A stretch of 51,725 bases of DNA, the filler included, from Jimgerdemannia flammicorona (taxonomy: Eukaryota), in the NCBI GenBank assembly GCA_003990765.1. It is 2 parts of 2 records of this genome, joined end to end, with 100 filler letters (N's around TTAATTAATTAA, not from the genome) between each part and the next. Parts side by side here need not be neighbours in the genome. Positions count along the whole stretch, not along the records: positions 1 to 25,813 come from RBNJ01000788.1; 1 more part is not named here. One strand, 5' to 3'. The translations under genes and the position numbers were made by a program. The stretch's first letter is position 1. Each line of letters starts with the position of its first letter. The notes below the pieces were generated by a model. That model saw nothing but the letters and a program-made list of their open reading frames with translations. It did not search any database and was not told the origin of the DNA. Shown piece by piece: positions 1 to 50,215 of the stretch.

Positions 1-122
1 AAAAAAAAAAAAAAAAAAATCAGAAATCTCACAACAGGCTACGGTTGTATTGGCATTGGGTGAGATGCGCTTCCTTGGATATATGAGTCGGGAAAGTGAC
101 ATGGCTCAAAAACCACAGTGCA

Positions 123-3100: not shown

Positions 3101-4282
3101 CAAGTATCTTGAACACACTCATTTTTATAGCAGCCGCTTTGGTATTGTCCTTATTTTCAAATATCTGGAATGCCGGTTTTGTGAACAGGCTACCGAGCAG
3201 TATAGATATGATGATATTTAGGCCAATGCATTATTGATGCCAAACTGCTTCATCGCAGGCGCAACCCCAAAACTGTTTCTCCTACCTGATGAACACATCT
3301 CTCTCCGGTGTCAACGTCCAAATTTTGTTGATCCTTAGATCCAGCACGCGCGCCATGAGGTCGAATGCCTTCAACTTCTGTTTGGTCCATTCCCAGCTCG
3401 GACCAGTTTCGTCCTCTTCCCTCCCCTTACCTGCGCGTCCTCTCTGAATGATCGGGATAGATGGAAGCGGCCAAAATATCAGGTACCGAGATATTAAAAT
3501 GGTTAAATCAAACCACGTAGAGAACGTCGACAGGTCCAATCGCGCAAGCTCGATTGAAAAGCGAACCTTGGGCTTCGCGGCAGCAATTGCTTTTTCCGCG
3601 ACGACCTTCGATGTGGATTTCTCCTCGGCAATGTTGACGAACCACTGTAGGACGAAGCCGTACATCTCCAGCGCAAGGCGATGCTGCGGAAAACTATCAG
3701 TTTCGTCGCCGTCGATGTCATCTGATGTCGCTTTTAATTCAGCTTGAAAACCTGACGAAACCAATAAAAATAAACGACGTTTGAGTTTGACTTTGTTTGG
3801 CTACAACAGGCCAAGCCAGTAGCAGTGGGCTTGTAACAGCTGAACGTGTATACCTGAGAGTATAATGTCAAATAATCGCGCAACAATGTGCGTTTTCAGG
3901 TGATGGAAGCTCCTAAATATAAAAGAAAAGGAAGAGTCAGGGACATTCTCATTACAGCGTGAATCAGGGTGAGAGAGTCAAGCTGCCTACTTGATGAAAC
4001 TTCGAATCTTGTCAAAGACAATTTCATCTGTGATGTTCTCCGGCGAATCTTCTACCTTGTCAACAATGTCTGGAAAAAAAGGAAAAAAAAAAAAAAATCG
4101 CATCGGTTATTATCTAATAGTTGGGGAAGCACGTTTTATGAAGAGTTGTACCAACCAATGAGGTATCGTTCGAGTTCTTTATCGTTAGCGCCTTCGATAG
4201 TGACGGAGTTTGGAATGAAGTAATCCTTCGGGTCTTCTTGGAGCTTTATCAGCTCGTCGTGAAGGCGGAAGGCGTCGGCCAT
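123..4282 (-). CDS. YCS4: Condensin complex subunit 1 (Cnd1/Ycs4/NCAPD2), multi-exon, 3' part runs off the window start
   Basis: ATG at 4282 (MADAFRLHDELIKLQED). Spliced exons give HEAT-type motifs AAQTTIIQDLQYWEH, LEDKSSHVRKNAIKVL, LLASKTKAEVLEAMDF, GIKKMLHLIW, LAELTSLEQVL, LSQLLFVVGHVAVKHIVHLE. GT-AG introns. Confidence 0.93.
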
Positions 4283-4456
4283 TGTTCCGGGTGTGTGTGT
4301 AGAACTGGTTGGCTATGTATATCGTCCCGCGAAATCGACGCGTTTTTGGGACGGGGGGGGCACGACGTCATCAAACAATATCCAATTATAAGCCACAAAA
4401 TGCGCTCACATACACGCACATCTTTGCATACACCTTCTTTATATTTGTATACCATC
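4283..4456. promoter_or_regulatory. Short divergent promoter with MCB/SCB-like elements
   Basis: 174 bp between the condensin and cupin ATGs, containing CGCGAAA and ACGCGT (~4328-4343). Another ACGCGT lies at ~4939 upstream of the KNL2-like gene. Confidence 0.45.
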
Positions 4457-4878
4457 ATGAAGGTCACTTTGCTCTCCGCCCTCCCTGTCGCAACGGTTTC
4501 TCACGACCCCATCGAGAAACGTGTGATTCTAAAGAATGGCGACGTTCCTCACATCACACAAGTAAAAATCCCGCCACTCTTCTGCTTTGTTGAGGCGTCA
4601 TTCTATGCAGTCCTCAACCCTGTCTGATGCAATGCAATCCATCACCATCACAGCTCGCGTGCGCCACCATCAAGCCGGGACAAATCTCATCAAAGCATTC
4701 CCACGTTGATATGACGGAGACTTTCTGCTTCCAAAGTGGGATTGGCGAGATGGAGGTGGATGGGAAGGTTTTTGAAATATGCTCAGGAACAAATGTCACG
4801 GTGTACCCGGGAGAGGCGCACGAAATCCGGAACACGGGGACGGAGGATGTTGTTGTGCTATACTTTGGGGTTGTGTAG
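4457..4878 (+). CDS. Small cupin_2-domain protein (2 exons)
   Basis: MKVTLLSALPVATVSHDPIEKRVILKNGDVPHITQ, intron ~4562-4653, then LACATIKPGQISSKHSHVDMTETF...VYPGEAHEIRNTG...YFGVV*. Cupin motif 1 (HxHxxxxE) and motif 2 (PGxxHxxxN) are present. Confidence 0.85.
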
Positions 4879-5007
4879 TGTGATTAGTATGATTTTACGT
4901 CATCACTTCTTTGCGGTTAAACAATGCAGTCCAATTTGACGCGTCGTTCTATATAGCAAAGCCTTCGTCCTCTCCCATCGTTTTCACCACCATCCGTGTG
5001 CAGAGCT

Positions 5008-5660
5008 ATGGACGGCAACCAACAAACATACCCAATATTAAATATACCCAATCAAGCTGTCCTACGTTCTCCCATCTCGAGACACGCGTTGCTACCAACA
5101 ACTGCGCGATCGGCATTCTCCACCCCCAGAGCAAGCCACACATCGGCCTTTAACACCCGTAACACCATTACCAACAACACTGCCTCGCATCACGACCACT
5201 CCGAGCCTCTTCAACAACCCTTCCCATCCTCCGTCACAGGATCGCCGACAGTCAGACCGGCACCTGTCCTCCCTGATACCGTCAGCCCGTCATCATTCTT
5301 CGCCAAAAGCCCTGAGCCCCTGCACAGGCCTAGCGAGTTTATTACCCCCGATAACACCCCAACGCGAGGACCGCACCATGGATCCGCACAACAGTCGAGC
5401 TGGAGCCCTGTGCAATCGCCATTTGGGTTGAACGGTGTTGCACCATTGTCAACGCAGATCCCAGTCTTTTTGACTACTACTACTACTACTACTACTACAC
5501 GATCGCATTCTGCCGGAGAAGAACAGGACGCGCTCAGATCTGATATTGCTGCAAGAGAAAGGTTTGAAATATTGAGTATGAGAAGCCCAATGCCCAAGGT
5601 GATGATAATACTCAAGCCCAAGCATCCCCATATACACAAGTTTTTTTTCTTCGTTAACCC

Positions 5661-5703
<43 letters not shown>

Positions 5704-8700
5704 CTCGTTGCCTCATTAGATTGTCGACCAAGTACGTCACAACATCGCACCACAATCTACTTTTAAGGTGCCATCATCCCCACAACACATGAATGGCTCC
5801 GCGCATCGCGCGAACATTTTCTCCAAAGTCTCCTCTCCTGCACCGTCGACCACGTACTCTACGCTCTCGCCTTCGGCAGTATACAGAGTTCCAAAACAAC
5901 CCAGCATGCGGGAGCTCGATTTTATTATGGCGGCCAGTCGGAATACATCAACAACGTCTTCCGCACATACCCCGTCATATTTTGGGAAAGCACCCGGTTC
6001 GGAGAACGAGTACGGCATGCAGAGATTGATCAACGGCCACCCCTTGATTGATAATTCGCAGCTTCCATACGCGGAAGGGGCAGACGGTCGAGGAAACGTT
6101 TCCTCGTCATACGAGTTGCCCTCTCAGTCTGTCTCCACCTCCGGCCCCGTCCCTGACGTGATAAAATCCAATTCGATGGTTAGGTCGATAGTATCTACGA
6201 TCAAGAACTCTAACGCTGCCGACGCAACTGGCATGGACATGAGCGATTCAACGACCTCGCTGACACCAAGTTTCGTCAGCACAAACGACACATACGATAA
6301 CGAGATGACAGTCACACCAACATACCAGGGACTTGGGCAAATGAACTCTGCTGATATTTTGACTGCTCAATCGCGTCTGCTATCTCCCTTCGATCTACCG
6401 CCCTCGCGCTTGGCCCATATTATTCAGGGTTTGAATTATGACGCTCAACCTTCTGACGACGAGCACGCCAATAATAACGAGTTCGATGAGTACGTGTACC
6501 TCTCGCCGAATGGTGGAGCCGAGGATGCGTTTTATTCGCCCACGCGCAAGTTCGCAGAATTGCAACGTGGGGCCTCGCCGGAGCCAATGGGTTTAAGCAA
6601 CGGTGTTGCCAAAGACGACGTTGTCGTTCGCGAGGAGCATCCTATAGACGCTGCCATAGACGTGCCGGCATTAGTCAAGGACACATCGGTCGCGTCGACG
6701 GCCTCTTCCATGCCTACATCGAGTCCGCAAGCATGTGTGATGGAGACAAATGCGATGCCTGTAGCCAAAAAGCCAGATAAAATGGAGTCGAAGGGGTTGG
6801 AGGATGAGGCGACGCATCTTCTGCAATGGAAATTGGGAGCGGCCAATAGGAGCGAGGTACACGTTTTGCTATTCGCATCAATTTTGTGGCTTTGAAAGTA
6901 GTTGTGGTATAGTTTGCTTATTGAAACTTTCTTGTATTTTTTGCTTGTTTATGGCAGGAGCCCGTTATTTTTGTGTCCGGATTGCATTCAGAGTCGAAAA
7001 AGGTATGTGCGAAAGTTATGGAGCAATTGTGGATGGAATCGACATTTTAGTTATTTTATTTTGGGGGGAGTTATGAAATGATGGACATTGGCTTTGATTT
7101 ATTTTCAGCTATGGAAGACAAATGAAATTGTCGAACGCATTGATGCACGGACACTCAAATCGTGTACAGGAAAAATCTATCATATTGATGGAGACCCAGA
7201 TACTCAGGAAATGCTGTCACGAGGTGATTGTTAATCCTTTAAGGTTTTTCTTTGCATCTCTATTAAACATATATCTTTTTCTGATCTTTCTGCTCCGAAC
7301 TGAACATTGTAGGAATCTCATATACTCTTTGTGAGGCCTTTAACAATGGTTTCCCTGAAAACTGGAAGCAACTCGTGTGGGACGACCTTGAGAATATTGG
7401 TCACTCGTCAACGATCTCACTGTCTACGAAAACTTCACCCCGTACGGAGAAGCTACATTCCGGTTCGTGGGATGCAAACACGAAAAACGTTCGTGTCACC
7501 AGGACATTTACACCGACAAAGACACCAAAGCATTCGAAGCTTGTACAAGAGCCTGTGACACCCCCACTCGCGAATAGGACGAGAAGTTCTGTTGCGGGGA
7601 AATCACCAATGTCATCGGCCGTCAAGGAAGTCGCGGTGACGGATAAGGATGCCGTTGATGCGACGGCGCACAAAACGCTCGACTCAGCCCGGAGGACGAG
7701 GGGACGACCACGACGACGCAAAATAATCAGGGATTCCAGTGATGATGACACCAGCGAAAACGGTGGAAAGCCGACTGAGGACGTGGGCCGTAGGGCCGAT
7801 GACAAGGCCGAACATGCACCATCCAAGGAGACGGCGCGAGGGCGCGTGCCATGGTCATTGGTGAAGTCGAGGTTACGAGATGTGGTGATCGAAATTCCTC
7901 CATTCACAAAGGTGCCTAGGAACGTGAATGAAATCCATGCTCGTAAAGAGGTACTTGTTACCTCGAGGCTTGAGGCGGGTCTTAAGGACGAAATCGGGCA
8001 TCCAAACACTAATGAATCAGAGACTGGAAGGGATGTGAAAAATGAGATACTGGTGAACGATGAACTGAACAAAGACTCAAGCGAGAGCGAGAGCATGTCA
8101 GCGGAGGAACAGAGGACAGTAACTGAGATTGCACAAAATGACACGATCGTCGATGATGTCAAAGTCACTGGAGAGTTAGCAGATAGCATACTAGAAGATA
8201 GAGCAACCAAGAACATTGGTAACGTCAAAGACGATACCACGGTGGTTGATGTCAAAGTCACTGGAGAGTCAACAGATACCATATCAGAAGATAGGGCAAC
8301 CAAGAACATTGATAACGTCAAAAACGATACGGTGGGTGATGCCGAAGCTCGCGTAGACTACGTGCCGAAAGATCGCACGGCCAATGACGTGGGAACTATC
8401 AAACTTAATGCAAAGCAAGAAAGCTCGGAAGGTGAATATGCCCTCGACAATAGCACCGGAGTTTCATCGGTCACTAAACATGGATGCAGTGCAGCGAAAC
8501 ATGCAACCTTTCTGAATTCGTCGAAAAAGCGAATTGATCCACGCCATAGCGCAGGTGCGAGCGAAGATCGAGCTGACGACGCAGATATCGAAGAAGAGCC
8601 ATTATCGAGCAGGAAGAGGAAGACACGAAGATACACCATTGACAAGGATGCGGAACAACCAAAAAAGAAGAGGACGTCTGTTAAGGTATATATTCTGTAT

Positions 8701-9800
8701 CCAGGGGGTGATACTTGGATGAATTGTTTTGTAAGCGTGTTTAAACTAAAAAGTATACGCGTTCTTTTCGACAGGTTGAAGCTTCGCTTTTGCCGTCACT
8801 AGGTGCATTGTCAACTGCGACGCGATCTGGCAGGAATGTGAAACCGCCTGCAGCGTGGTGGGAAGTGAAGTTGGAAGTGAAGGATGAAACCAAGCAGAAG
8901 GGCAAGTCTGTGGAGGAAAATGATGAGGTCAAGCAAAGAATGATAGTCGTGAAAGAAAAGAGAGAACGGCCCCGCAAAGAGAAGTCGAACAATATGACAG
9001 TAGCGTCGCCCGAATCGTCGTCGAAGCACCAGTATACTGCTTCCAGTACAGCGCGGCCGTTACCGTTCCAGGCGAATCAAGCTGGCAAAGACGACAATGT
9101 GTTGATTGCAGACCGATTCTTGCCTCCGGCAAAAGAGGTGCAGAGGACAAAGGTACTTGAGAAGAGCGATAGCGAGGTTAAATCACGTACAACACAAGTC
9201 GCCAGAGCAACGAAAGCGGCGAGAGTGAACAGCACGTCCCCTGCGAAGAGCGAGAGCGGAAGTAAGTCATTTATTGATTGAAGGGCGCATGGTGGTGCAC
9301 ATTTGATTTGACTCGCTTTGAAAATGATGTCGTGTATGTTCGCTTCTAACATTGATTCACACCATACATATAGAATCTACCAAGCGCAAACCAAGAAAAC
9401 TTCCTTTCCTCAAGGAAGGACGTCGGCGTAGAGGTGGGAGTGGTAAGCAGACACTGAAAGTGTGTGAAAGCGAGGAGGAAAGCAGGGAGCCCAGTGTACC
9501 GACCGACATTGGCGAAATAGGCCATCATCTCGTGCAAAATGAAGTAACGGCTGGAGAAGATGGGAATTCGAATGCTGCAGATCAGGAATGTGAGGCTGAA
9601 GATTGGGACTTAGAGAATACGTACGGTGATGCTAATCTGGAGAAATTAGGTTCTACGCAAAACACCTTGGTCGGCTCATCCTCAAGAGGTATGTCTCTTT
9701 CCGTCTAGGTATATTCATTCGTAAAAAGATCGAAAAAGAGATGGTCCAAACCATTTCTCATTTGGGGTATAAAGATATATATTACATCGCCCACCGTGCA

Positions 9801-9863
<63 letters not shown>

Positions 9864-10200
9864 ACGCGTGCCATTTGTTTATGTATCATCAAGAAATTGT
9901 AGAACCCGAATCGTATGATCCGTACAACGTCGACACATGGGTTAAAACCCCAACAAAAAAGAAGTCTAGGGTATGTTTTGAGAACTACTTTTCAATCGAG
10001 TCCTGCGACTTTGATCTGAGAGCACAAAGGACTCACTCGTATTGTGCCTTACCTAGTCTAATGTGACACCGACGAGAATCAAGCGTGACAAAATTTCAAG
10101 TGTGGAAATGAAATCCAAGGCGTCAACGTCATACTCGCTTAAACGGGCAAGGGGTGGAGAAGATGAACTTAGTACCGACCAGTACGTGTTCTCGGATTGA
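5008..10200 (+). CDS. KNL2: KNL2/M18BP1-like centromere licensing factor (SANTA domain + CENPC-k motif), multi-exon
   Basis: Exons across ~6800-7385 splice to LLQWKL..IFVSG..LWKTNEIVERIDARTLKSCTGKIYHIDG..CEAFNNGFPENWKQLV (SANTA signature). RSGRNVKPPAAWW at 8823-8861 matches CENPC-k. The rest is low-complexity. Probable stop TGA at 10198-10200; exon structure partly uncertain. Confidence 0.78.
8137..8330 (+). repeat. In-frame 93-bp (31-aa) tandem duplication in the KNL2-like CDS
   Basis: NDTIVDDVKVTGELADSILEDRATKNIGNVK followed by DDTTVVDVKVTGESTDTISEDRATKNIDNVK. Confidence 0.85.
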
Positions 10201-10372
10201 ACATAATGTGTAGTTTCAAGTGTTGTAATAATGTGTGTTTTTGTTTGGTGGGTTACTACATATATATTACATATAATGACTGACTGAGCCACCCAAAAAT
10301 TATTAATATGGAAATAATTCATCTGTGACGGATATATTCGGGGTCTGTTGGCTTGCACCATAAACATTTGTC

Positions 10373-13300
10373 ATGTTCTCAACCACACTTCGAACAACAC
10401 TCCGAGACCTATCCATATCGTCTCTACCTCGTCGACAGTACGCGCGTGATTCTTGTACACGGCCCGCTATAGCCTTCTGCCGAACGGTGAAGAACACCGT
10501 AGGTCAATACCGCTCTCTACACGCGACGTGCTATATGCGCTTCAGACCCTTGCCACAGGATGCCCGTTCCGTCGGACCCGGCAGCAAAAACACTTCATCG
10601 CTCTCGGGCCTCGGTGCACCTGTTGTTGAGAAAGAATACAGCGCACGCAAATTCAGAGAGCCGGCCGTAGCGTTACTCAGGAAGGTTGATTCGCAGGCGA
10701 AAAAGTGGCACTCGAGCAATGCTGGCCGGTTTCGAGAGAAGCCTGTTGATGATTTGACAAATACAAAATGGGCGCGACCGACCGAGCGGCGGGCTAACCA
10801 GGCGGAGAATTCACGTCGTGGTAGAGATCGGCCACCCAACGATCGCGGATTCAGTAAGTTTCAGGAGGCTGTTCCCATCCAGGCACCGAAGCCAATTAAG
10901 AAGCCACCTGTAGTTGCGAAAGTTCAGCGAGACGTGTTCATCCCAGAAGTGGTGAATGTGACCAATCTAACCAAGATTTTGGGTGTTCGGTTAGGTAGGT
11001 TTCGGAAATCTGTGATATGTGCATGTGCATTTGGGTTTGTTGTTCGGTATCCAATTCTTAAATGACTATGATGCTTGACACATTCTTCCGTCTGCACATG
11101 CAATAGAAATGCTGGTCCGGACAATGCATAGATTGGGCATGGAAAATGCGACACATGACCATCGTGAGTAGCCGTCCCTTGTGTCTTCTCTATCTTTCGT
11201 AACACCTGTTTAGTTTACGTCATCCTTTTGCTGATGCCATGTCTCATTGTTGTCTGTGATTGCAGTGCTTAATTCGGACGAAGCTAGCTTAATAGCCATG
11301 GAGTTGGACTTGAATCCAATTGTTGATTCGGAGGCTGCTATCGATTTGTATCCACGGTATGTACGACTAGATTTCTGGTATTCGTATTACCATCATTGGT
11401 GGCTCGGTTCTCTGGTACGTGTCGCATTCCTATACCTACACGAGTCGGAATTTAATTAAATCCACGCTGCGCAGAATTCTTCCTGCAGATATGTCCTCCT
11501 TTCCCCTTCGACCGCCAGTCGTCACCATCATGGGTCATGTCGATCACGGAAAGACGACATTGCTGGATACATTGCGGAAGACGGCGGTGGCGGCGGGAGA
11601 GGCCGGTGGGATCACACAACATATCGGCGCGTTCTCGGGTGAGTTTACATCTTGGAAATATGTTATCGGGATATAATTTGACCCCTAATGTCGTAGTCCT
11701 CGTCTATTGATTATGGCAATATCGGAAGATTGTATAATCACTCTCAGAATTCAACAACTCCAATTTCTTATCATGTCCACCCCCTTAGTCGACCTCCCCT
11801 CTGGCAAACGCATCACCTTCCTTGATACTCCAGGTCACGCCGCCTTCTCTGCCATGCGCTCCCGCGGCGCCAATGTTACTGATATCGTCGTCCTCGTCGT
11901 TGCAGCCGACGACGGCGTGATGCCTCAAACGATTGAAGCGATTAAGCACGCCCAAGCCGCCAACGTGCCTATCGTCGTGGCCATCAACAAGTGCGACAAG
12001 CACGACGCCGACCCACGCAAAGCCAAGGAAGGCCTGTTGCAGCACGGCATTCAGCTCGAAGAGTTTGGCGGCGAGACCCCGGCGGTGGAGGTGTCGGGTA
12101 TAACCGGCCTTGGCCTACCAGAACTGGAAGAAACGGTGGTGACGCTGGCGGAGGTTTTGGAACTGAGAGCGGATAAGGGGGGTGCCGCGGAAGGAGTGGT
12201 AATCGAGTCACAGGTGGAGAAGGGAAGGGGTACTATGGCGACAGTGTTGGTCAAACAGGGTACGTTGACGGTTGGGAGCTATATTGTTGCAGGAACTACA
12301 TGGTGTAAGATCAGATCGATGACCGATGATAAGGGGCGACCGGTGAAGGAAGCAGGGCCGGGGGCACCGGTCAAGGTGATAGGATGGAAGGAGATGCCGA
12401 ATGCGGGGGATGAGATATTGCAAGCCGAGGACGAGGTGCGCGATTTCTTTGTTCCCGCTCATGTTTTCATGGTACATCAAAAGAAATGTTGGCTGTTTTA
12501 CAAGATTGCTTTTTCTTGCATATAGGCACTCGCCAAAACGGTCGTGGAAAACCGCATAACCAAACAACAACGAGAAACGCAACTCAGAGATTTGGAGGTA
12601 ATTAATGACAAGCGTCGCAAAGATAAGGAGGCGGGCACAATGGAACGGGCGGTCGAAAAAGCCCAGAGGAAGGAACTCTGGATGTTTCATCATGGTATGA
12701 TAAAGGACTTGCCAGATGCGGCAAATATCATAAATGAAGATGATGAGGGGGACACGAAGAAAGCGAAAGTGGAAGTGAAGGAGTTCAGGGCAGTTGTGAA
12801 GGGTAAGAATTTGACTTTGTATATTTTAAGCTCACCATTCTGAACATCGCCACATGCTCACATCATGGCGGTAACTTGTATTCGAATCTGTAGGGGACGT
12901 TAGCGGCACTGTGGGGACCGTCGTTGATTGTTTGAACGGCCTGTGCACTCCAGAGATAAAGGTGAAGGTCGTAGGCTCTGGTGTTGGCAACATTACAGAC
13001 GGGGATGTACAACTGGCAGCAGCTTGTGAAGGTAGTGAATTTATAAGTGCTCAGTTTTCGTGCCTGTTTGCTATTTTGGATAGGCAACATAAATCAACAC
13101 TCTTCCTCCATGTTTCACTCTCTTCTCGCGGGTCCCAGCCAGCATTATAGGCTTCAACGTGAAAACTGATAGAAAGATTCAACATGACGCGTCAGTGGCC
13201 AGGGTGCCCATCAAATCCTATGACGTCATCTATAAGTTACTGGACGACATCAAACTGACGCTCGGTGAGATGCTGCCACCGATTGTAACGACACAGGTTA

Positions 13301-13691
13301 ACGGCGAAGCAACAGTGTTACAAATCTTCCAGATCAATACGCAAGGCCGTGAGACTAAGGCGGTTGCCGGCTGCAGGGTTACGAACGGGAGTATGACCAA
13401 GATTGGGAGGGTCAGAATCATTAGAGATCACAAGCAGATATGGGAAGGTGAGGCGTGCTGCTTTAGTTTTGATGAGAGGTTTTTTTTTTTTGGACAACAG
13501 AACTGACCACATGGCATGATCCTCCATATGCAGGCGAACTTGAGACTCTAAGGCAAGTCAAAAAGGATATCATGGAAGCCAAAAAGGGTCTGGAGTGTGG
13601 CATGTCGTTTAACGATTTCTATGATTTCAAAGAGGGTGATGTGATACAAAGTGTGGTGACCGTCACCACACCGAGGTCGTATAATACCTAG
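10373..13691 (+). CDS. IFM1: Mitochondrial translation initiation factor IF-2, multi-exon
   Basis: Arg/Ser/Thr-rich N-terminal presequence. Motifs [71 protein letters not shown]. Stop TAG 13689-13691. Confidence 0.96.
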
Positions 13692-14125
13692 ATTAATTCA
13701 AAGTGTCGGATATATTTTGCACGACGTTGAATACAAAAGATATAGAAGGGCATTAAATTTGTTGTAGTTTGATCGCTTATATGGGTTGATGTTTTGAAAG
13801 TAGAACATGTAATTATGTAGGATAAACGTCATGCCTATCTAGGGGTGAGAGGGCTGGGCTCCTGGCAATGTTTGCGAATGAGATTGGGCTGGGCACGGAC
13901 GCCCACATGAGGTGGACGGTGTAATTTGCCCAATGCAGCAATTCGTGCCTTGGCTCTTCCATCATCCCGACCAACCGCAGCATGCCATTGGCCACAAGCC
14001 ATACGTGACGTGCAAGTAAGACCGCTTCAAGACCAAGAACCCCTCGCGTTTGTTTACTGCTGCAACCAACACCCCAACCCTCGACATTCACCCCTACTCT
14101 CTCGCCATCAACCCCCGTTCCAACA

Positions 14126-15444
14126 ATGAAATATCTTGAAGTGCCAGCCCTCGATGCTGTGAACAATATACTCTCATGGGAGACACCGGAATGCAAAATA
14201 TTTGGACGAGTCGAAGCCTACTCATGTATGTGCTTCCACGCTAACACCTGCACCACATCACCTGTGGGATAGACCCGTCTATCACCCATCACAACCGCCC
14301 TCATTCTTACTGTAACCGAAACACCGCCGCATTTACCAGGTAAATCTGCTGGAACCGACAAGAAGCTCTTCAAGCAGCTTGAAACTAGATACACTACAGA
14401 CCTATCGACGTCCCAAGGCTCTTTCTCTCCTGAGGATCACTTTCACATGGGCTCACCGTTTGGTCCCATGGACCAACCTTCGTCAAGAAAAACGCTATTC
14501 TACCTCATCGGTACCCTGAACTCCTCTTTCCCTGACTACGATTTCAGGTAAAGATATTTCGAGTGCTATACGAACAGAACTAGTATCGTTGAATAGTTGT
14601 AAACAACACTTACCGGACATTCACGCATATCAGCGAGGTGAAACCAGAACAATTCAGCAAACAGCCTTCATGTCAGTTGGTGATCAATTCTGTCAACAAC
14701 ACTCTCTTCAACATGGGCAACGAACGAATCGTCAAAGACCTTCGCCTGTGGGATGTCATTGACAACATTATCGATCTTAACGATTGCAACGTCTATTCGT
14801 ACAACCCGGACATGGATGACGATCCGAATGGCGAAGAAGGATCGATGTAAGTGTGTAGCTGGTTTTGGTGAATTGGACATGAGGCAATTCAGAGAGACAG
14901 CGTGATTCATATTGCAAACCCTCGAAGATATCTGATTTCCTAAAATGAATATTTCATAGCTGGTCGCTTAATTACTTCTTTTTCAATCGCAATCTGAAAC
15001 GGATGGTCTTCTTTTCACTTCGAAGTCTCAGGTAACCTATGCTTGATGTATATAGCGATTATCTCTATCAGTGACCAACTCCTGTCAACTACGAATGTTC
15101 AATTTCGTGTCATGGCTTACCCTTCTTTCTTTGCAACCGCTCGCCGCCCACACACAGTCCGAACGCACCGATGCAAGAGGGTGAGGACCTTGACGCGTTC
15201 TCTGACTCTGAAATTGATCCGAATCGTGAAGGGTATGTATGGATTCATGTATATATGAATCAGAGATATACAAATCTTGCCTGGTTGAGCAATCTGGTTT
15301 TGAGAATACGTTGTCCTCGATTCTCATTGTCTGTCGTTACTTGTTCATATAAATCCGTCAAAATATCGGCACGTCTATCTCCACTGTTGATCAATTAGAT
15401 ATGCTTACCAGGAATACGTGATGGGCGACATGGAAGGATTGTGA
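14126..15444 (+). CDS. MAF1: RNA polymerase III repressor Maf1, multi-exon
   Basis: MKYLE...[93 protein letters not shown]. Confidence 0.95.
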
Positions 15445-16501
15445 GAAGTATAATCGCCAACATTTCGCTACAATGCGAATTTCCCGATCTTGCAATTCGT
15501 GTGAGTCCGCGATGAGTCCTAGATTGCCGCAATATCGTCATCCCCTTTGCAGTTCTCTTCTAGTGTACAAATTTATTTGATTTATCGATGTTGGATGTTG
15601 TATATTAGTATTTTTCAAATCGAAACTCATCGTCCGTTGTTGAATGTTATTACTTGTTCCATGTAAACCTATCTGGAAACACCAGTTGTCCGATAAACAA
15701 ATCGATGCAAATAATTGTCACCTTTGTTCAAGTCTTCCAGATACGTTCGATGTCCACCAATTGTGGAGCAAAGGCCGCAAATTTTGCATGCCCCAGCCCC
15801 AATTGAGTATTCATTTTTATAGAAACATAATTAAAAAAACTGTGGTCATTGCTCCAGAGAAACAAATTGAATTCGGTGAACACAACCAACCCACCTGAGA
15901 TATTGGCTGCGAGACAGTTTTATTACTCCTACTAGTGTATGCAAAGACGGAACATCTAACAAGCATAGTTGGGCTGCTCGGAACTCGAACCGGACCGCCG
16001 CAGGCACACGTCGGTTTGCAGAGCGAATGCACCTCGAACCGTGGCAATATAGATAGAAACTTGCATCTTGGAGTGAGCATAGCTTCGATTAGATAAAAAT
16101 ATTGTTTTCTCCTGGTTGCGCAATGCTGGAGCCTCCAGTCGTGGAGTAGCGACCGTTCGCTAATTGCTGGGGTTAGGGCCTGATTCGAGATTGTAGGAGC
16201 AGAAAATTGAAAGGGTAGCGCAGGGTACTCGTCGTCGGAAGAGGTGAGGGATAAGAGTAGAAGTGTGGCTGAGGAATGCAATGAGGCGGCTTGTTGCCGG
16301 GGAGAAAGGTAGAACAGGAATCGGTGATGCAGGCCTGGACGTACCGGCGCCACGAGAAAACTTTAGAGGCAAGTATTGATAAAGGCATTAAAAAAAAAAA
16401 AAGAGCGGAAATACTAGGGCTAAGGTTCTGGAGCTGATGTTTTTTTTTCTTGTCTTTTGGCATGAATTTTCGTGACTCACTTGCTGCGCGTCCACTGAAT
16501 A

Positions 16502-16762
16502 GGAATTTGCGTGACTTCGTATTTCACCAAGCCACAATTCCGGTTCGACTCATCCGTCCATCTCAATCGCCCATCTCAATCTAATCGATTCCACCTATTG
16601 CTCGAGTCCCCACCAATATTCAATATATATTCAGTAGTCAGCAGTCAGCTTCTTCATCATTTTAGTCTTAGTCTTATTTTTATCTTAATCACCAACAATT
16701 TTAGTTTTCATTGCCAAGCTGACCGAGGATTGACAGTCACAAAATGAAGTCACGCAAATTCC
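16502..16762. repeat. 261-bp segment bounded by perfect 17-bp inverted repeats (possible MITE)
   Basis: GGAATTTGCGTGACTTC (16502-16518) and GAAGTCACGCAAATTCC (16746-16762). No convincing TSD. Confidence 0.5.
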
Positions 16763-16839
16763 GCCTGAACCATGGGTTAATTGATTATGACAAAAACAGA
16801 CTGCAAGTCATGTCAACCCGGCAGTCATCAGGGCTGGGG

Positions 16840-17490
16840 TAGGTACTACTTCAGTGAGACCTTTTGATTAATATAGAGCAGTTAAGTAATAGGTATCACT
16901 CTCAGCTTCTTTTGATGATATATGAGGTTGGGTTCCAGTTATTGGGAGGAGTTGGGGGGCCCAAGGCTATCTATTTCAGGTATCTTGGCTGCACTCAATT
17001 AGAACTGAGAGCTGACATGACAATGTGATCAAGGCCTGCAGGCTTGAGTAGTGAGATATTGGGGGTCTTCTCTCACCTTATATATAAGTTCTTTACTTAT
17101 GTATCTCATCTGGGAGAATCAGGTCCTATCTACTATGATGTACTTTGATGAGAGTTTTTTTCTTTATCTGTCATTCTTCTTAGAATAGCAGAGGCTATTC
17201 TATTCAGCTTAGGCATAACCTTATATATATATTAGGGTCTCAAGTATGCACTTCCAGTTATTGATATATGACTGGGTTTCCTCTGATAGTAAGAAGAGTA
17301 TAGTATATAGAATGAGGTATAGGCTACTATAGGCTCTGCTGTATTTAGTATAGTTGAGCTGCTGGATAATAGTTAGTCTAGATTAATAGAGGAGCAGTAC
17401 TTAGTGAGTAGTGGGAGAGAGTTTTGGTCTATATAGTCTAGGTTCTCTTTCAATAAAAATCTATAGGACTCTGAATCTGTAAAATAAAAA
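16840..17490. mobile_element. Degenerate, hypermutated repeat fragment of unknown family
   Basis: CpG-depleted, TpA-rich, no ORF. Abuts the truncated LTR of the old gypsy element. Confidence 0.35.
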
Positions 17491-20400
17491 AAAGATGACT
17501 AATAGAATTTTACAATATTTCAAAAGATTTTATAACTAGCTAAAATAAGATACTTAATACTAAAAAAGATAAAAATATTCTAGTAATATCTTGATACCAA
17601 GAGAAGATTTCTAAATATTCAAAAGATATTAAAATATAGTAGAATATTCAGAAAAAGATAAGAAAAGACTAGAGAAAAGATGTAAAAAAATATTAAAACT
17701 AAAATATGATTATAAAATTATTACATCTCTCTCTTTTTAAGAACTAATATCCTTATTGAGTTTTTAAGTAATATAAGACTAAATATATTTAACTAAAATT
17801 TCTCAAACTTATATTAGTACATTAGTAAGAACTACTCATCCTTATATAGAATAGAAAATCTATTACTAGACTAACTAACTGGAAGAGATTCAAACTTAGC
17901 TAGTAGCTTCATTTTGATAAACTTCTTATTTACTAGATGATCTTCTAGTTCTAAGATCTCAAAGTAAACTTCTGATATATAAAATACTAATTATTACTAT
18001 AGATCATTAATAATCCAAGAAAGTCACTATAGAGATTAAGTAATATATTTTATCTCAAAGTCTTGAACTAAATCTTGAAAGTTTTTAAGGTTAATCAGTA
18101 GTTCTTATATAGTATTATATTCAGAATAGTCCATCTACTTGACCAGATATTTAGGATAACAGTAGTGAATTCATTTGTTAAGAATTTTCTTAACTTTATA
18201 CTTAATATAGGTTTCAATAATTACAGAGGTAGATAGCTTGAGAATTTAACTAAGATAGAGTGGTAACTAGTTCCAGATCTTAAGATGTAATATATAAAAG
18301 ATTAGGTATACTCTTATAGTTTTAGGTAGTTTGAGATAATAGAAGAATATAGAGACTTATTCAGTAATCTTAAAGAGTCTAATATACTTGAGTTGGAATT
18401 TGTTCAATAGGTAGTTAATTTGAGATTATATCTTGGGGTTCTTAGTAAACAGTTGGACTTGATTATTAATAGTATAGATAATATTACAGTATTTCTTATC
18501 AGTATACTTGGCTTGATGCTGTTGGGTCTTCTGGAGGTTTATAGTAGCAATCTTAAGTAGTTTGTTCATTTTATCTATAAAATTCTTAGTAGTAGAGACT
18601 TATATTTAACTGCTTTTCTTGAAAGAAACTAGACTTGCAGGAGTCTTGAAATCTTGACTATAGAGTAGCCAAAAAGAAAAAAGACCAATAGATAATTAGA
18701 TGGTATTATTATATATAAATTCTGTATAAGTTAAGTAATAGTCTCAATTATCTTACTTATAAGAAATATAGTTTCTAAGTATTTATTCTAAAGTTCTGTT
18801 TATGACTCAGTTTGTCTATCAGTTTGCAGATAAAAGATAGTAAACATAGCTAGTTGAGTTTTCAGAGTCTTAAAGAGAGTTTACCAGAAGTAACTAGTGA
18901 ATTTGGGGTCATAGTTACTAATAATTACTTGTAGTAGATCATAGTAATAAAAGATAGACTTGAAGAAGACTCTTGTAATTTCAGGTATAGTAGCATTGAT
19001 AGTGATTGGTTCAGCAACTATAGTTTTGATCAGATAGTCAATAAATATAATAATAGCATTAGTACTAGATTGGATTTATAGTAGCTAAGTTATAAAGTCT
19101 ATTGTAACTTATTTAAATTTCTTAGTTAAAATTAGTAGTAGTTATAGTAAACTAGCTAGTACTTGATTGATAGACTTGTTGTACTGACAGAGATCACAGC
19201 TAGTAATATAATTCTTAATTTTCTTAACTATGCTTGACCAATAGTAGTGATATTGTATATTCTTAACAGTTTTCTCAATTCTAAAGTAACTGACAAGAGG
19301 AGAGTTATAATTTTCTTACAGTATCTTAAAGTATAGATTTATATTATTAAATAGATAGACTTTGTTTTGATAGTAGAGATCAGATTGTTCTCAGTAGTAT
19401 ATATATCCTTGAGCTTATTTGAGAAGACTTTAGTAGTAATAGTATCTTCTTTATAAGCTTATCTGATTTGATTTAGAAATTCTGATACTAAGATAACTTA
19501 TATAATTACAATAAGGTCTAGATATCTAGATAAGATATCTGGTACTATAAGTTTCTTACCAGGCTTATAGATAATCATCAGATTAAAGGTTTGAAGCTTT
19601 AAACTCTACTTGGCTTATAGATATAATAGAGTAGATTGAGTATTGATATACTTGAGTGATTGATAATCAGTAATAACATCAAACTCAATACCTTCTAGAT
19701 ATCATTACTAGTAGTTTAGTATATATATTATTACTAGTAGCTCTTTCTTGTGAGTGACTAGCTTTTGTTTAGCTAGGGTCAACTTGTAGAACTTAAAGAT
19801 AATAGAGTGGTATTCTTTACCATCTTATAATAGAACTGCTTAAATGGTAAAATTTAATACATTAGTAGTAATGGTAAATTTCAGACTTGAATCTGTATTA
19901 TATAAGACTAGAGTATAAGTTAGATAGTTTTTAAGTTCTTAGAAGACTTATTGACAAAAGAGATCTCAGATATAGAGTATATAGTAATCAGAGTTAGAGG
20001 TCTTTCTTATGAAATTAGTCAGTAGCTCAGTAATACCAGAGAAGTTTCTGATAAAGCAATAGTAGTAGCCAACTAGACTAAGAAAAGATCAGAGTTCTGT
20101 GAAGTTTAATAGAATAGACTATTCTTGAATTATCTCTATCTTATATAGATCTACTTGAATTTCTTATATAGAGATAATGTGATCAAAATATTTAACTTAT
20201 TCTTTGAAGAATTCACATTTTTTAAGCTTTATATAAAACTTGTATTTTTATAAAATCTTCAGAACTACTCAGATATACTTGAGATACTCTTCTTTAGTTA
20301 TACTAAAGATCAGAATATCATTAAGATATACCAACAAAAAGATGAATAGTTGGTCCTTAAATATCTTATTTATAAGAGTCTGGAATATAGTAGATATATT

Positions 20401-21420
20401 GGTAAAACCAAATACTAGAACTAGAAATTTATAGAGTTTAAAGGGAGTTATAAATACAGTCTTAATAATATCTTCTGGCTTAATTCAGATTTAGTAGTAA
20501 TCTGACATAAGGTTCAGCTTAGTGAAGTATGTAGCATTTTTGAGAATATCAAAAATTTGATCAATTAAGAGTAGCAGATATTAGTTCTTATCTATAAGCT
20601 TGTTAAATACTCAGTAGTCTATATATTATATAAGATACTATCTTTTTTCTTAACAAATAAGACTGGTGAGCTATAGGAGAATTTGCTTGATTGAATAGCT
20701 CCTCATATAAGTAATTATTCTAATTTCTTCTTAACTACTTCAATTTTGAGAGATGACATATAGTATATGTATATATTTTTTAGAAGATATAGCTCCTGAG
20801 ATCAGTTTAATTTTATGATCAACTTCTTATACAGAGAGTAGACTAGGTAGTTTGTCTGGAAAGATATCCTTAAATTCTTTAAGCAATAACTTAATACTTT
20901 TATTAATTGATAGCTTTTTGTCTTGCTTCTTGAGATAAACTATTGTAATAAAAGTATATACTGTTTTCTTGAGTATTTTCTTATACTGTATTGCTGATAG
21001 TATTGCAATCTGAGTTTTGTTTATAGGCTTGTCTGTCTTGATAGTAATATTGACTCCTTCTTAAAGTAGAGTAACTTTATTCTTATATTAATTAATATTC
21101 AGATTATATTTCATAAGCCAGAGTTTTCCTAAGATCAAATTATGATCTTCTAGTAATACAACCTTGAAGTCTACTTATTCTTAATATTTCTGGATCTTGA
21201 TGAGTAGTTTGGCAGCAATTAACTCAATAGAATACAGTATACCATCTATAGTAACTATATTGTTATTCTTGAGTATAGGCTTGGTAAGAATCTTGAGGTT
21301 TTTGATAAGATTCTGATTGATGAAGTTTTCTATAACTCTACTATCTATAAGTACTTGAACTTTCTTTCCTTTAATGAGATCTTTGAAAATGAGTATAACT
21401 TGAGCTCAGTTTTTAGTAAG

Positions 21421-23429
21421 TGTAAGCATACAACCTCCAAGCTACCAAAATCACACATGACCTCTGAACAAATCTGGAAATCACCTGTTTGATCACAAAG
21501 CTGAGTCAATATAAAGTTACAGAACACAAAATTCACACAAATGGAATCTTACCAATCAGGACCAAATACATATATACTGAGTACCAAGATATGTCAAATC
21601 AGAGAACTAAAACAAAACAACAACTACAACTTTCAAACACACAAACATGACCACTGAGATCTACACCTGTATCTGCACTGACATTTAGAATGCTATTGTC
21701 AACCAAGCCACACCCCCTCTATCCCTCATGAATATCCATAGCCTAGCACTCCTCTACTTCATGGAAGCCTAATGGAATGCTCTGAATATGCTTAGCGAGG
21801 CCCACCGAATTGGACAAATTTCAAGCTACTACTAGATTAGCCGCCTTCTAGAAGATATGATCGAACACTACCATAATACAAACATTACCCAGATGTCTCA
21901 ACACCAGAAGCTCATTGCCTACAAACATCGAGAACTCTTTTACAAGTATAGTACCATTATTCCCCGCCTTCAAGTTATTACCAGTAAAATGGTTGCTACC
22001 CTGTCCTATGACCAAATCGATGACATGATACAAGAACTCAACCACAAGTACCTTAAGTATGTCAAAACTACAGACAGAACCTTCCCACACCCCAATGATC
22101 ATATCCTGCAAATGCCCCAAGTTGGATACGCCATGAAGGACATCTATGATATAATCCACTTTGATGAAGATGAAGCAGAAGACAATGATCCCTCTGATAC
22201 TGATATGACCCTAAGCCAAGGATCCCTGTCAACACTAATTATACCACCAACCTTGCCAATGAACTTACAACAGTTCATAACCACATATGAGACTTATTGG
22301 AACAATGACCACTGGCACGAATACCAATCCACGTTCACTCCCAATTACTTCAACTATAATGAAGAGACTGGAGAACACAACCTATACCTCCAGACAACCC
22401 TTGAGATTGAACCAACTACTCCACCATCCAAGTATGAGTAATATGAACTACAGCTACTAGCTTACTACAACCCCATGACTCATAGTGCTATAACCTACAG
22501 AAGTATGCAGACAGCGAATCTAATGAAAGTGAAGATAATGTATCTCTCCTTCACCCACCAACATCTTACCCAGCATACAAAATTAATGATACCATCTTGT
22601 GGGATGGAGATGAAGTCCTAATGTATTATTACCTCAGCGAATAAGGAGAAGTAATCTGCGAACCACTCTTCCTAGATGACTACTTTATCAGAGATGATAT
22701 AATTGATGGTAATGTCATCAAGAACTACCCAGAAAGTGCCTAAACTATAAATAGCCTAGCAGTCATAGTATAGTTAGATTAGCCTTATATGATATGACTG
22801 TGAACTGACTCAGCAGTCAGATGATCTCTTGATATATCAGATCATACTTATACTATGTAACTGTATTCTGACTCAGCAAAGCACTTAGTGCTATATCCAT
22901 ATCTAGTATAGTTCAGATAGCCCCTCACTAGTATAAATGCCCCCTTCCCCAGACCTTAGAATCTCAGATTTGAATACTTGAACAATCCGAACACAACTCC
23001 TGAGCACTTCCCCACAATATCCCTTCACACAACTGCTCCTAGTATAGCAATATCATAAATAGTGAATAAACCTATTTAATAATCCACAAACCACTCTTAA
23101 GTAAATTTATTCCTTGTTAGATCCCACTCCTAACCCCATCATGAAATTTCCTAATTGGGTATTGTCTGCAGCAATATGTCAATTCAACTAAGCTGGTCTT
23201 AGTTTCTTGAACTTCCTGAAATATGGAAAATTCTAAACATCTAGAACTAGTCCGAAAAAAGGACTTTGGTTGAGACATCAATCTGAACTTGAAATCAATA
23301 AGTGTAGAGGATGTACTCTATATAAAATTGATCTTGACCATAAGAAAACAGTCTTCCAGAATATCTAGAACTTCCAGAAAACCCTTCCAGAACTATGTAA
23401 TAGTTACCTTAAAAAGCAACCCTCTTATA
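21421..23429 (+). mobile_element. Solo LTR (2009 bp) of the long-LTR family
   Basis: TGTAAG...CTTATA (terminal CA mutated to TA), with 5-bp TSD GTAAG at 21416-21420 and 23430-23434. Colinear with the reverse complement of 41170-43243. Confidence 0.95.
21647..22743 (+). pseudogene. LTR-encoded ORF (solo-LTR copy), disrupted
   Basis: MTTEIY...YPESA*. Several C-to-T/G-to-A stops and a 1-nt deletion near 22502. Confidence 0.8.
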
Positions 23430-25813
23430 GTAAGACTTACTGCTTAATTAGTACTACCAAAATATTTTTAGTCTTACTTAGTTTAACTAGCTTTTTTTAG
23501 AATCATTTGTATGACTCAGTCTCCTTCCTTAACTGTATAGTCTTGATCTTTCTGATTAATAAGTAAGACTTAAACTTGTTCTCAATAGTCTAAATCAATA
23601 ATACTAGTACTAATATCCAAATGATATTTGATACTAAGTTCTGATTATAGTGTAATTTTAGTATAATATTCTTCAGAATATTAGATTACAATTCTAGTAG
23701 ATATCAGAGTTCAGTCTTTAGCTAGAATAGTAACTTACTTAACAGAGTATAGGTTAAAATCAATGACTCTTTCTAATTGACATTGAGGAATCTGGGCCTT
23801 TAGATGAAGCTTCTTGATCTTGGGTTCAGATTGACTAATAGTAGGATTGATAGATACATATATCTTTGGACAATACAATAATTGGTCTTGATAGTTTACT
23901 GGTCTTCTTAGGATATTTATTTGTAATGTATCCTATTTAACAACAGAAGAAATAAGCTCTAGATTTCTTTAAACAATTCTTTTCTTTTAGAATAAGCTTA
24001 ATATTCTTCTTATTTATAGTATCTAAGTCTATTGGTACTGAGCTAACTGCTTTGGGTTAGTTCTTGTGATAGTTCTCAAAATAGTTCTTCTTGTGATATT
24101 TTGGTTTAAAGTAGTTGCTAAAGATGATAACATTAAATCTATTAGTAATTCTCATAGCTTTATTGAAGGTCTATGGCTTCTCTAACTCAATCTTAACTTA
24201 TGTATTTTCTTTCAGATCTTAAATATAGTGATCTATCTTTTTATCTTTAGCAATTACTAGTAGTTTAAGTAGAATTAATAGAAATTATACATTATAACTT
24301 TATATAGACTTGAGTTACTTGATGTTTACTAACTTATCTCAAACTAGCTTAATAGTATTAGCAGACTTGAACTGCTAGTAAAGGACCTCCTTGAAGGATT
24401 TCTAATCTTGGATTCTTGTGTTTAAATAAGAAGTAGTGGTTATAATATAATTATACTATCAAATAGCTATATTTCCTCAGAAGAGTATAATAGCAAATTA
24501 GACTTATATATCTTCTTTTATTCTTATAAGTTTGAAGTATTGGTCCAACTAAAAGGTCTATATATCTATAGTCAGTTCTCTTCAATAACTATTAAAGATA
24601 TCTGACTTGAGTAGCTTAAAGCTAACTAGTATGATAGTAGAATATAATATAGTTATAGTTCTTGTTTTCTGATATTCTAGTTATACTTGAAGTTATTGAA
24701 TTTGATGAGCCATAGTGGTAATTATATTCTCTAGATTGACTTATAGTTCTATATTATCTGTTTCTTCTATAGCAGAGAGATCTAGATAGTAGGCTGATTC
24801 TCCATAGCTCATTTGGACTTATATAATCAGTTGTGACTAGTTTTCAAATTCATATAAGGTTTTTTAATAAGGCAAGATATAATAACACTACTGCTACTAA
24901 GTGTAATAGTTCTAGTTTCTTTAAGAGAAAGTACTAAGTTTTGAAAATTCTAATGAGTCTAAAGTAATTTAAAGAGATACTTATAGGTTTAAGTATTCTT
25001 AAAGAAATTTTAGAAAAAAATATTCTAAGCTTTATTTAAATAGAAAATAAGGATATTTATACAGAATTTGAAAGAAAGATCTAAAAGGATTTTAGAAAAA
25101 AAGAGAAAAGTCAAGAAATAGGTTCTCAGTAAAAATGACTAATAGAATTCTATAATATTCCAAAAGGTTCTATGACTAGCTAAAATAAGATACTTAATAT
25201 CTAGAAAAGACAAAAATGTTCTAATGATGTCTTAGTGTCAAAAGAAGATTTCTAAATATTCAAAAGGTACTAGAATATAATAGAATATTTAGAAAAAAAC
25301 AAAAAAAGACTAAAGAAAAGATATAAAAAGTATTAAGACTAAAATATGACTGTGAAATTATTATATTAACAGATTTTGCTATAAAGCTATAGATCTTAAA
25401 AAAAGAGAACAATATGAAGTAAATTTAGTTATACTATGAGATTTAAATATAGTAGTGAAAAGGCAATCTATATTTACTATCAGTTGCTCTAAAAAGGCTA
25501 CTATATATATATAGCTATAAGGTCTGTAAATTCTGAAATCTAAAGAATCACTATAAGTTATTACCAGAATTCTCTCTCATCATTATCATTGCCATTACTA
25601 TTGCTATTACTATCACTACTTTAGCTCTTAATAAGTAGTTTATATACTATCTATATAAGAAAAAATTTAATATTATTAGTAGAGAGTATTTTTTTATCTC
25701 AAATATTCTCTTTTTTAATAATTATTAATAAATAAAACAAGTAGACTAATATATAATTAAGAACTACTATTTATTTATTTATAATATAATAGTGCAGTAA
25801 GATAGAAAAAAAA

Positions 25814-49927: not shown

Positions 49928-50215
49928 TAGTGCTTCCAATAAATTAAATTGAATCAAAGGTCCAATTCAATTGAATTTGAATCAAATCAAAGGCTAATTT
50001 AATTTGAAATTCAATTTGAATCCTATTTTTCAAAATTTAATAACTTAACAAATATATATCTAAATTTAATGATCTTTAGCTTGTTAGATTCCTCTATATA
50101 AGGTGAATCTAATAAGTTAAAGATTGTTAAATTTGGACATATTTTTATTGAGTTATTACATTTCTAAAAATAGGGTTTGAATTAGACCCTTGATTTAATT
50201 CATTTAGGAGTACTA
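49928..50215. mobile_element. Fold-back MITE, hAT-like
   Basis: Ends TAGTGCTTCC...GGAGTACTA. Long imperfect inverted arms meet at ~50090-50105. 8-bp TSD GTTTTAAG at 49920-49927 and 50216-50223. Confidence 0.8.

What the first reader, a model, noticed from the sequence alone, without database searches (positions are those of the whole stretch)
16840..25813. RIP-like CpA-to-TpA (plus CpG) hypermutation in an apparently non-Dikarya fungus
Seen: repeats are extremely TpA-rich and essentially CpG-free, while the genes are not. Diagnostic changes include YLDD to YLND (TG to TA), Trp TGG to TAG in the chromodomain and PBS, and LTR ends CA to TA (23428, 25364). The differences I read between the two young LTRs were transitions in CpG and CpA contexts. 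Severity is graded: old element, then lone LTRs, then the young element. Known: CpA-directed RIP is established in ascomycetes and RIP-like patterns in some basidiomycetes; I know of no demonstration in Mucoromycota. Deamination of non-CG methylcytosine is the alternative. LTR-divergence dating would be inflated here.
Basis: partly seen in the sequence, partly recalled or inferred. Interest (0 to 1): 0.7.

Follow-up and report, generated by a model that had tools for sequence, protein, structure and literature searches.

The report
Transposon C-to-T hypermutation, Endogonales fungus
Dead transposons in this early-diverging mycorrhizal fungus have been riddled with C-to-T changes, most at CpG, then CpA and CpC, hardly at CpT, while neighbouring genes are untouched; it looks like repeat-induced point mutation but fits DNA methylation by DIM-2-type enzymes better than classical RIP.

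Summary
16840-25813 is a nest of dead Ty3/gypsy pieces: old parts 26% GC with 0 CpG, flanking genes CpG o/e about 1.05. Five sister-LTR pairs differ by 334 transitions and 7 transversions. The organism is Jimgerdemannia flammicorona, Mucoromycota. The spectrum is not CpA-specific: CpG 29% > CpA 11.9% > CpC 7.7% >> CpT 2.4%, about 390, 160, 100 and 30 times the transversion rate. That order matches Dim2 methylation in Zymoseptoria, not CpA-dominated RIP. The genome has three DIM-2-like genes; no RID, DNMT1 or DNMT5 was found (own searches insensitive; a published table agrees). Non-CpG hits show no clustering or strand bursts, and a 90-95% identical tandem LRR array escapes while its paralog is mutated. 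Best reading: locus-specific DIM-2 methylation turned into T in many small steps; active mutator or premeiotic DIM-2 RIP remain open. CpG decay masks RIP indices (8 of 456 sampled windows positive). LTR dating is inflated about 20-fold. I found no paper reporting this in Mucoromycota; this scan noted it before on other pieces of the same genome.

The parts
1..16800 (.). Unmutated gene-rich control (condensin Cnd1, mitochondrial IF2 and others)
   Evidence: CpG o/e 1.05, TpA 0.65; Cnd1_N; IF2 hits
16820..17493 (.). CpG-free fragment of another repeat family abutting and truncating the old left LTR
   Evidence: 77% matches in L034, L069, L066, L077; 0 CpG, CpT o/e 1.64
17491..17725 (-). Truncated 3' LTR of the old Ty3/gypsy element
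   Evidence: 85% to 25131-25366; 33 transitions, 0 transversions in 223 columns
17726..21415 (-). Old chromovirus-type pol (chromodomain near 18080-18160, RT motif 20317-20328), about 100 stops per frame
   Evidence: 1143 first-look candidates in G000, best other copy 84%
21421..23429 (+). Solo LTR of the 2-kb LTR family inserted in the old element, target duplication GTAAG, terminal CA reads TA
   Evidence: CpA loss 0.23 versus 0.04-0.12 in 30 other copies
23435..24901 (-). 5' internal part (gag region and PBS) of the old element
   Evidence: 77% colinear with L105 and L109; PBS reads TAG
24902..25365 (-). 5' LTR of the old element, terminal dinucleotide mutated
   Evidence: matches the L105 LTR over 474 bp
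25367..25813 (.). AT-rich CpG-free repeat remnant at the contig end
   Evidence: 80% to L092; GC 0.21
40293..41169 (+). First half of an LTR split by the young element (other contig)
41170..48694 (-). Young internally deleted Ty3/gypsy element, LTRs 41170-43243 and 46621-48694, target duplication AAGAT, chromodomain ORF 43671-44123
   Evidence: 118 transitions, 0 transversions between LTRs; Chromo and SH3_Tf2-1
48695..49247 (+). Second half of the split LTR
   Evidence: 0 CpG in 553 bp
49250..50420 (.). Very AT-rich repeat remnants
   Evidence: GC 0.20, 1 CpG; matches in L071, L092, L088, L069

Best explanation
Transposons are packaged as heterochromatin and methylated by DIM-2-type cytosine methyltransferases in the order CpG >> CpA > CpC >> CpT. 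The methylated cytosines are converted to T on both strands in many small steps over time, so each element decays from CpG-free to CpA/CpC-poor and finally AT-rich. Targeting is by locus (chromatin state), not by sequence duplication as such, and needs no RID. Shown here: spectrum, direction, size of the excess, restriction to repeats, escape of some duplications, presence of three DIM-2-like genes with intact catalytic motifs. Inferred: that these enzymes methylate in this order here, that 5mC is the intermediate, and that conversion is mostly unrepaired deamination rather than an active step.
For: Pooled sister LTRs: CpG 41/141, CpA 137/1151, CpC 52/674, CpT 31/1319; CA vs CC p=0.005, CC vs CT p=5e-8. 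Young pair 27%, 7.5%, 3.8%, 0.7% against Z. tritici TE methylation CG 43-61%, CA 10-22%, CC 3-8%, CT <0.01% (PMC8016269 section 8). Three DIM-2-like loci C8187, C11271, C3657 with motifs I, IV, ENV and X; best solved-structure hit E 6e-39 versus 1e-25 for DNMT1; nearest named relatives are Mucoromycota Dim-2. PMC9963178 Dataset S1 lists three DIM2 and no DNMT1, RID1 or DNMT5 for this species among 83 rows. Both strands hit alike per copy (rho 0.80); no spatial clustering and no strand overdispersion of non-CpG hits. LRR tandem array L108 unmutated (CpG 21/381, CpA 9/499; 78 ts, 58 tv) while paralog L107 is mutated (CpG 21/33, CpA 36/446, CpC 29/173, CpT 5/329); gene duplicate L097 unmutated. 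Mucoromycota Phycomyces has DIM2 and TE methylation in CG and CHH (PMC11258239 passages).
Against: No methylome. The excess (100-400 times the transversion rate) is far above the roughly tenfold CpG effect recalled for mammals, and a TDG/MUG fragment and two UNG loci exist, so purely passive conversion is not assured. In Z. tritici and in Neurospora DIM-2 RIP, mutation is CpA-biased even where CpG is most methylated, so methylation order need not equal mutation order. CpG hits show mild per-copy strand overdispersion (chi 44.9 vs 26.2+-6.6, p 0.01). One inverted repeat (L081) has CpA 12/128 but CpG only 2/50. L108 could be homogenised by recent gene conversion.
Confidence: 0.55

Rival explanations
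1. DIM-2-dependent active mutator in vegetative nuclei (the 'mitotic RIP' of Zymoseptoria tritici), here with a broader CpG/CpA/CpC range.
For: Excess of 100-400 times over transversions is like Z. tritici, where >95% of mutations were C>T in 5mC regions; three DIM-2 paralogs; repair glycosylases present.
Against: In Z. tritici >98% of the C>T changes were at CA and CG was not mutated; here CpG is first and CpC substantial. Rates per context follow methylation-like proportions.
Confidence: 0.22
2. Premeiotic, homology-triggered RIP by the RID-independent DIM-5/HP1/DIM-2 branch, acting in zygospores over many sexual cycles.
For: Neurospora DIM-2 can mediate RIP without RID (bioRxiv 115501 passages); no near-identical copies seen: best other copy 92% among 40 scored of 4824 LTR candidates; mild strand overdispersion at CpG; many weak rounds would blur bursts.
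Against: That branch has a very strong CpA preference, is triggered very effectively by tandem arrays and spreads into single-copy flanks. Here CpG leads, a tandem array and a gene duplicate escape, and borders are sharp. Lack of identical copies may be assembly collapse.
Confidence: 0.15
3. Canonical RID-dependent CpA RIP.
For: C:G>T:A only, repeat-confined, CpA loss real.
Against: No RID in own searches or the published table; RID-1 reported exclusive to Pezizomycotina; all DIM-2-like and DNMT2-like loci read keep ENV, which RID lacks; spectrum not CpA-led.
Confidence: 0.04
4. Ordinary CpG decay only, or editing of retroelement cDNA during transposition.
For: CpG is the top target; 221 of 456 sampled windows have CpG o/e <0.1, many without CpA depletion.
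Against: Fixed-A columns lose 45.6% of C, CpC 36-52%, CpT 13%. Sister LTRs, identical at insertion, differ on both strands, and a non-retro LRR array shows the same spectrum.
Confidence: 0.04

Closest known systems
Dim2-dependent TE methylation and mitotic C>T mutation in Zymoseptoria tritici (PMC8016269; passages and section 8 read)
   Same: DIM-2 present; TE-restricted C>T; context order CG>CA>CC>>CT equals its methylation order.
   Different: There mutation is >98% at CA and spares CG; Dnmt5 and rid are present. Here mutation follows the whole order and no DNMT5 or RID was found.
DIM-5/HP1/DIM-2 branch of RIP in Neurospora crassa (bioRxiv 10.1101/115501; passages)
   Same: RID-independent C>T of repeats by a DIM-2 enzyme.
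   Different: Premeiotic, homology-triggered, very strong CpA bias, spreads into flanks; here CpG-led, CpC hit, sharp borders, some tandem repeats escape; timing unknown.
Canonical RID-dependent RIP of Pezizomycotina (PMC12543289 sections 8-9; PMC7882544 passages)
   Same: One-directional C:G>T:A on both strands, AT-rich TE relics, stops in TE genes.
   Different: No RID found; RIP indices mostly negative (8 of 456 windows); genome is 231 Mb and TE-rich.
RIP-like TpCpG hypermutation of Pucciniomycotina (PMC3318451; passages)
   Same: CpG-centred hypermutation of gypsy elements outside Ascomycota.
   Different: No TpCpG preference here (ApCpG 0.30, CpCpG 0.21, TpCpG 0.16, GpCpG 0.15), and non-CpG cytosines are hit.
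RIP-index signal in Entomophthorales, Zoopagomycota (PMC11105155; passages)
   Same: RIP-like composition reported outside Dikarya (24% of windows in Zoophthora radicans). One of its 'RID candidates', DSO57_1016267, appears among my DIM-2-like hits.
   Different: Index-based only, no alignment spectrum, different phylum.

Membership tests
RIP (Neurospora type) | Only C:G>T:A transitions, both strands | tested here: met
   334 ts, 7 tv; 116 of 118 polarised to C/G
RIP (Neurospora type) | CpA is the preferred target | tested here: not met
   CpG 29% > CpA 11.9% > CpC 7.7% >> CpT 2.4%
RIP (Neurospora type) | Confined to repeated DNA | tested here: met
   genes CpG o/e 1.02-1.05, sharp border at about 16820
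RIP (Neurospora type) | Triggered by duplication itself (linked, >400 bp, >80% identity) | tested here: inconclusive
   L108 array and L097 duplicate escape, L107 does not; leans against, but recent homogenisation or selection is not excluded
RIP (Neurospora type) | RID/Masc1 gene | tested here: inconclusive
   None, none in the published table; own family search is insensitive (PF03167 missed UNG); no RID sequence was available as query
RIP (Neurospora type) | Acts premeiotically | not testable with these tools
   needs crosses; no runs listed
RIP (Neurospora type) | Clustered, strand-coordinated bursts (recalled) | tested here: inconclusive
   none for non-CpG events, mild strand overdispersion at CpG; many rounds would blur it
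DIM-2 methyltransferase family (three genes in G000) | RFTS-like, BAH and C5-MTase domains with PC and ENV motifs, closer to DIM-2 than DNMT1 | tested here: met
   reciprocal-BLAST class DIM2 in PMC9963178 Dataset S1
DIM-2 methyltransferase family (three genes in G000) | Methylates CG and non-CG cytosines in H3K9me heterochromatin | not testable with these tools
   no methylome or ChIP
Z. tritici Dim2 mitotic mutator | >95% of changes C>T in methylated repeats | tested here: met
   334 of 341 differences are transitions
Z. tritici Dim2 mitotic mutator | >98% of C>T at CA, CG spared | tested here: not met
   61 of 118 CpG-capable, 36 CpA
Pucciniomycotina TpCpG hypermutation | TpCpG preferred over other CpG | tested here: not met

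The most novel reading that the evidence does not exclude
J. flammicorona runs an active, RID-free transposon mutator built on an expanded DIM-2 set alone, with its own CpG>CpA>CpC>>CpT signature. DIM-2-driven hypermutation would then be an ancient fungal defence older than Dikarya and RID, hidden from RIP-index screens by CpG decay, and probably shared by other DIM-2-bearing early-diverging fungi (Glomeromycota, Phycomyces, Entomophthorales).
Probability: 0.33. Interest if true: 0.82.

Novelty: new variant of a known kind. Interest (0 to 1): 0.58.

Why it matters
A 2025 kingdom-wide screen found RIP-like signatures only in Ascomycota (PMC12543289). This genome shows repeat-confined non-CpG hypermutation about 100 times above background in Mucoromycota, and shows why such screens can miss it: CpG decay creates CpA/TpG and cancels the index. 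With three DIM-2-like genes and apparently no other DNA cytosine methyltransferase, it is a clean natural case for asking whether DIM-2 alone can mutate repeats, and whether RIP grew out of that. Practically, LTR-divergence ages and TE landscapes in this genome are overestimated about 20-fold unless C>T changes are excluded.

Tried and rejected
IF2 fragment search gave no useful taxon; the DIM-2-like exon did. The look-up of sequencing runs listed no run, so no second isolate or within-sample variation was examined. More full-length young elements could not be fetched, so sister-LTR pairs came from loci already held (5 pairs; L090 left out because its repeats were not a clean pair). One control row (L108 array shift 1) was dropped: the aligner matched the array to itself. 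The first strand-run test was confounded by mutual exclusion within a CpG and redone; the p=0.005 run in one LTR ignores base composition. Old-family copies were picked by similarity to a heavily mutated query, so their loads are biased upward; columns with C in <20% of copies were excluded. PF12047 search found only a DIM-2-like locus. All 150 top relatives of P0121 were DIM-2-like, so no DNMT1, DNMT5 or RID query was at hand. TpCpG, cDNA editing and CpG-only decay were rejected. Literature searches showed no report of this pattern in Mucoromycota; subscription papers, including primary Endogonales genome papers, and the SI pdf of PMC9963178 could not be read and may bear on novelty.
Full report
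Anatomy. The window joins two contigs of G000 (231 Mb, 35,354 contigs): C788 is 1-25813 and C789 follows an N spacer; contigs are numbered by length, so they need not be neighbours. From about 16820 to the end of C788 lies a nest of repeats: a fragment of one family (16820-17493), an old minus-strand Ty3/gypsy element with LTRs ending at 17725 and 25365, a 2-kb solo LTR inserted in it (21421-23429, target duplication GTAAG) and an AT-rich tail. C789 holds a young element of the solo LTR's family (41170-48694, duplication AAGAT, chromodomain) inserted into a further LTR.

Observation. The old parts have GC 0.26 and no CpG in 5.9 kb, CpA/TpG o/e 0.72-0.75, CpC 0.63-0.72, CpT 1.72; genes have CpG o/e 1.02-1.05. 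The young LTRs differ at 118 of 2070 columns, all transitions. In 116 of 118 the C or G base is present in the other 28 copies, in 111 as the majority; contexts are 61 CpG-capable, 36 CpA, 14-17 CpC, 4 CpT.

Spectrum. Five sister-LTR pairs (two in the window, L068, L076, L105) give 334 transitions and 7 transversions in 4653 columns; C>T per site is CpG 41/141, CpA 137/1151, CpC 52/674, CpT 31/1319, about 390, 160, 100 and 30 times the transversion rate (approximate, since sites lost in both copies are unseen). In 30 copies of the old family, CpG is gone and columns followed by an invariant A are 45.6% T, CpC 36-52%, CpT 13%; as GC falls from 34% to 27%, CA+TG and CC+GG fall, TA rises and CT+AG stays near 500. 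So CpA loss is real and not a by-product of CpG decay, but the rule is 'CpG first, CpT spared', with a 5'-A preference and no TpCpG preference. Unmutated duplicates have ts/tv about 1.5, so LTR divergence overstates age about 20-fold (inference).

Genome-wide. In 60 contig starts sampled across the size range, 221 of 456 1-kb windows have CpG o/e <0.1, 61 have composite index >0 and 8 pass the stringent RIPper cut-offs of PMC7882544. CpA o/e rises to 1.2-1.3 while CpG decays and drops below 1 only under about 30% GC. This masking is a likely reason why index or k-mer screens would not flag such a genome (inference); PMC12543289 found RIP-like signatures only in four ascomycete classes (abstract, sections 8-9), and its main text does not name this genus.

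Host and enzymes. An exon of a G000 methyltransferase is 100% identical to two Jimgerdemannia flammicorona proteins: Mucoromycota, Endogonales. Own-genome searches found three DIM-2-like loci (C8187, C11271, C3657) and DNMT2-like pieces on C58, C2181 and C1744 (the DNMT2 label is my reading of the motifs). The three keep motifs I, IV, ENV and X and are themselves unmutated. P0122 hits a fungal solved structure that I recognise as Neurospora DIM-2 (label recalled) at 6e-39 and DNMT1 at 1e-25; nearest named relatives are Dim-2 proteins of Mucorales, Glomeromycota and Basidiobolus. I found no RID, DNMT1 or DNMT5, but such searches miss genes here: PF03167 missed UNG, which TIGR00628 found. Independently, all 83 C5-methyltransferase rows of PMC9963178 Dataset S1 list three DIM2 and no DNMT1, RID1 or DNMT5 for this species, while Endogone has DNMT1; the text calls RID-1 exclusive to Pezizomycotina. 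A TDG/MUG fragment sits at a contig end.

Tests against RIP. Per copy, both strands carry matching loads (rho 0.80). With a null that keeps copy loads and site rates, non-CpG hits show no clustering or strand overdispersion; CpG hits show mild overdispersion (p 0.01), which may reflect shared ancestry or a few hits per round. Two paralogous LRR arrays of 159-165 bp exon-intron units give a natural control: L108, 90-95% identical head to tail over about 4 kb, keeps its intronic CpG (56 in 18 units) with a neutral spectrum, while L107 has 12 in 23 units and the full spectrum. Gene duplicate L097 is also untouched. Neurospora tandem arrays are very effective RIP triggers and DIM-2 RIP spreads into flanks (bioRxiv 115501 passages); here the border is sharp. 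Against my reading: inverted repeat L081 has CpA 12/128 but CpG 2/50; no copy above 92% identity was seen among 40 scored of 4824 candidates, though assembly collapse can explain that.

Mechanism. The mutation order equals the Dim2 methylation order in Z. tritici TEs (CG 43-61%, CA 10-22%, CC 3-8%, CT <0.01%). I put 0.55 on DIM-2 methylation of heterochromatic loci converted to T in many small steps, 0.22 on an active vegetative DIM-2 mutator, 0.15 on premeiotic DIM-2 RIP, 0.04 on RID RIP and 0.04 on CpG decay or cDNA editing. Methylation, timing and the conversion step are inferred, not shown.

Novelty. Eight literature searches showed no report of this in Mucoromycota. Outside Dikarya, an index-only RIP signal was reported for Entomophthorales (PMC11105155 passages) and none for chytrids (PMC6572847 passages). 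Other papers seen as passages: PMC13297926, PMC10386755, PMC11258239, PMC3318451. It works like RIP in outcome but fails the CpA test, so I file it as a new variant of DIM-2-linked repeat mutation, not as RIP. Earlier notes of this scan on other pieces of the genome agree; my reading was recorded before I saw them and they are not independent support.

Noticed in passing
window 25814-25913: N spacer joins two contigs (C788, C789) that are adjacent only in a length-sorted list; features on either side are not shown to be linked.
   Followed up: yes
L107:1866-7163 and L108:2969-6862: Paralogous LRR genes built of about 159-bp exon-intron tandem units; one is hypermutated, the other intact, so host genes can be captured by the process.
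   Followed up: partly
window 40293-49247; L022, L015, L011: The 2-kb LTR family is repeatedly found inserted into its own LTRs or other TEs, in line with chromodomain targeting of heterochromatin.
   Followed up: no
window 21836-22441 and 41859-42569 (-): The 2-kb LTRs contain an ORF of 200-240 aa with no Pfam match.
   Followed up: no
L081:4832-6408: Element with 670-bp inverted repeats keeps its CpG (2/50 changed) but shows CpA changes (12/128); unexplained.
   Followed up: partly
P0184: Entomophthora muscae DSO57_1016267, a published 'RID candidate', ranks among DIM-2-like proteins.
   Followed up: partly
L063/L065 (C1744) and L003/L002 (C58, C2181): Apparently two DNMT2-like genes.
   Followed up: no
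window 33836-34339 (+) onward: Intron-containing gene with a bacterial-type Bmp/PnrA substrate-binding domain (E 4e-11).
   Followed up: no
window 50561-50631 (+): tRNA-Gly(GCC) just beyond the AT-rich block keeps its CpG.
   Followed up: no
G000 C1630 and C5369; C34337: Two UNG loci and a TDG/MUG fragment at the end of a tiny contig.
   Followed up: partly
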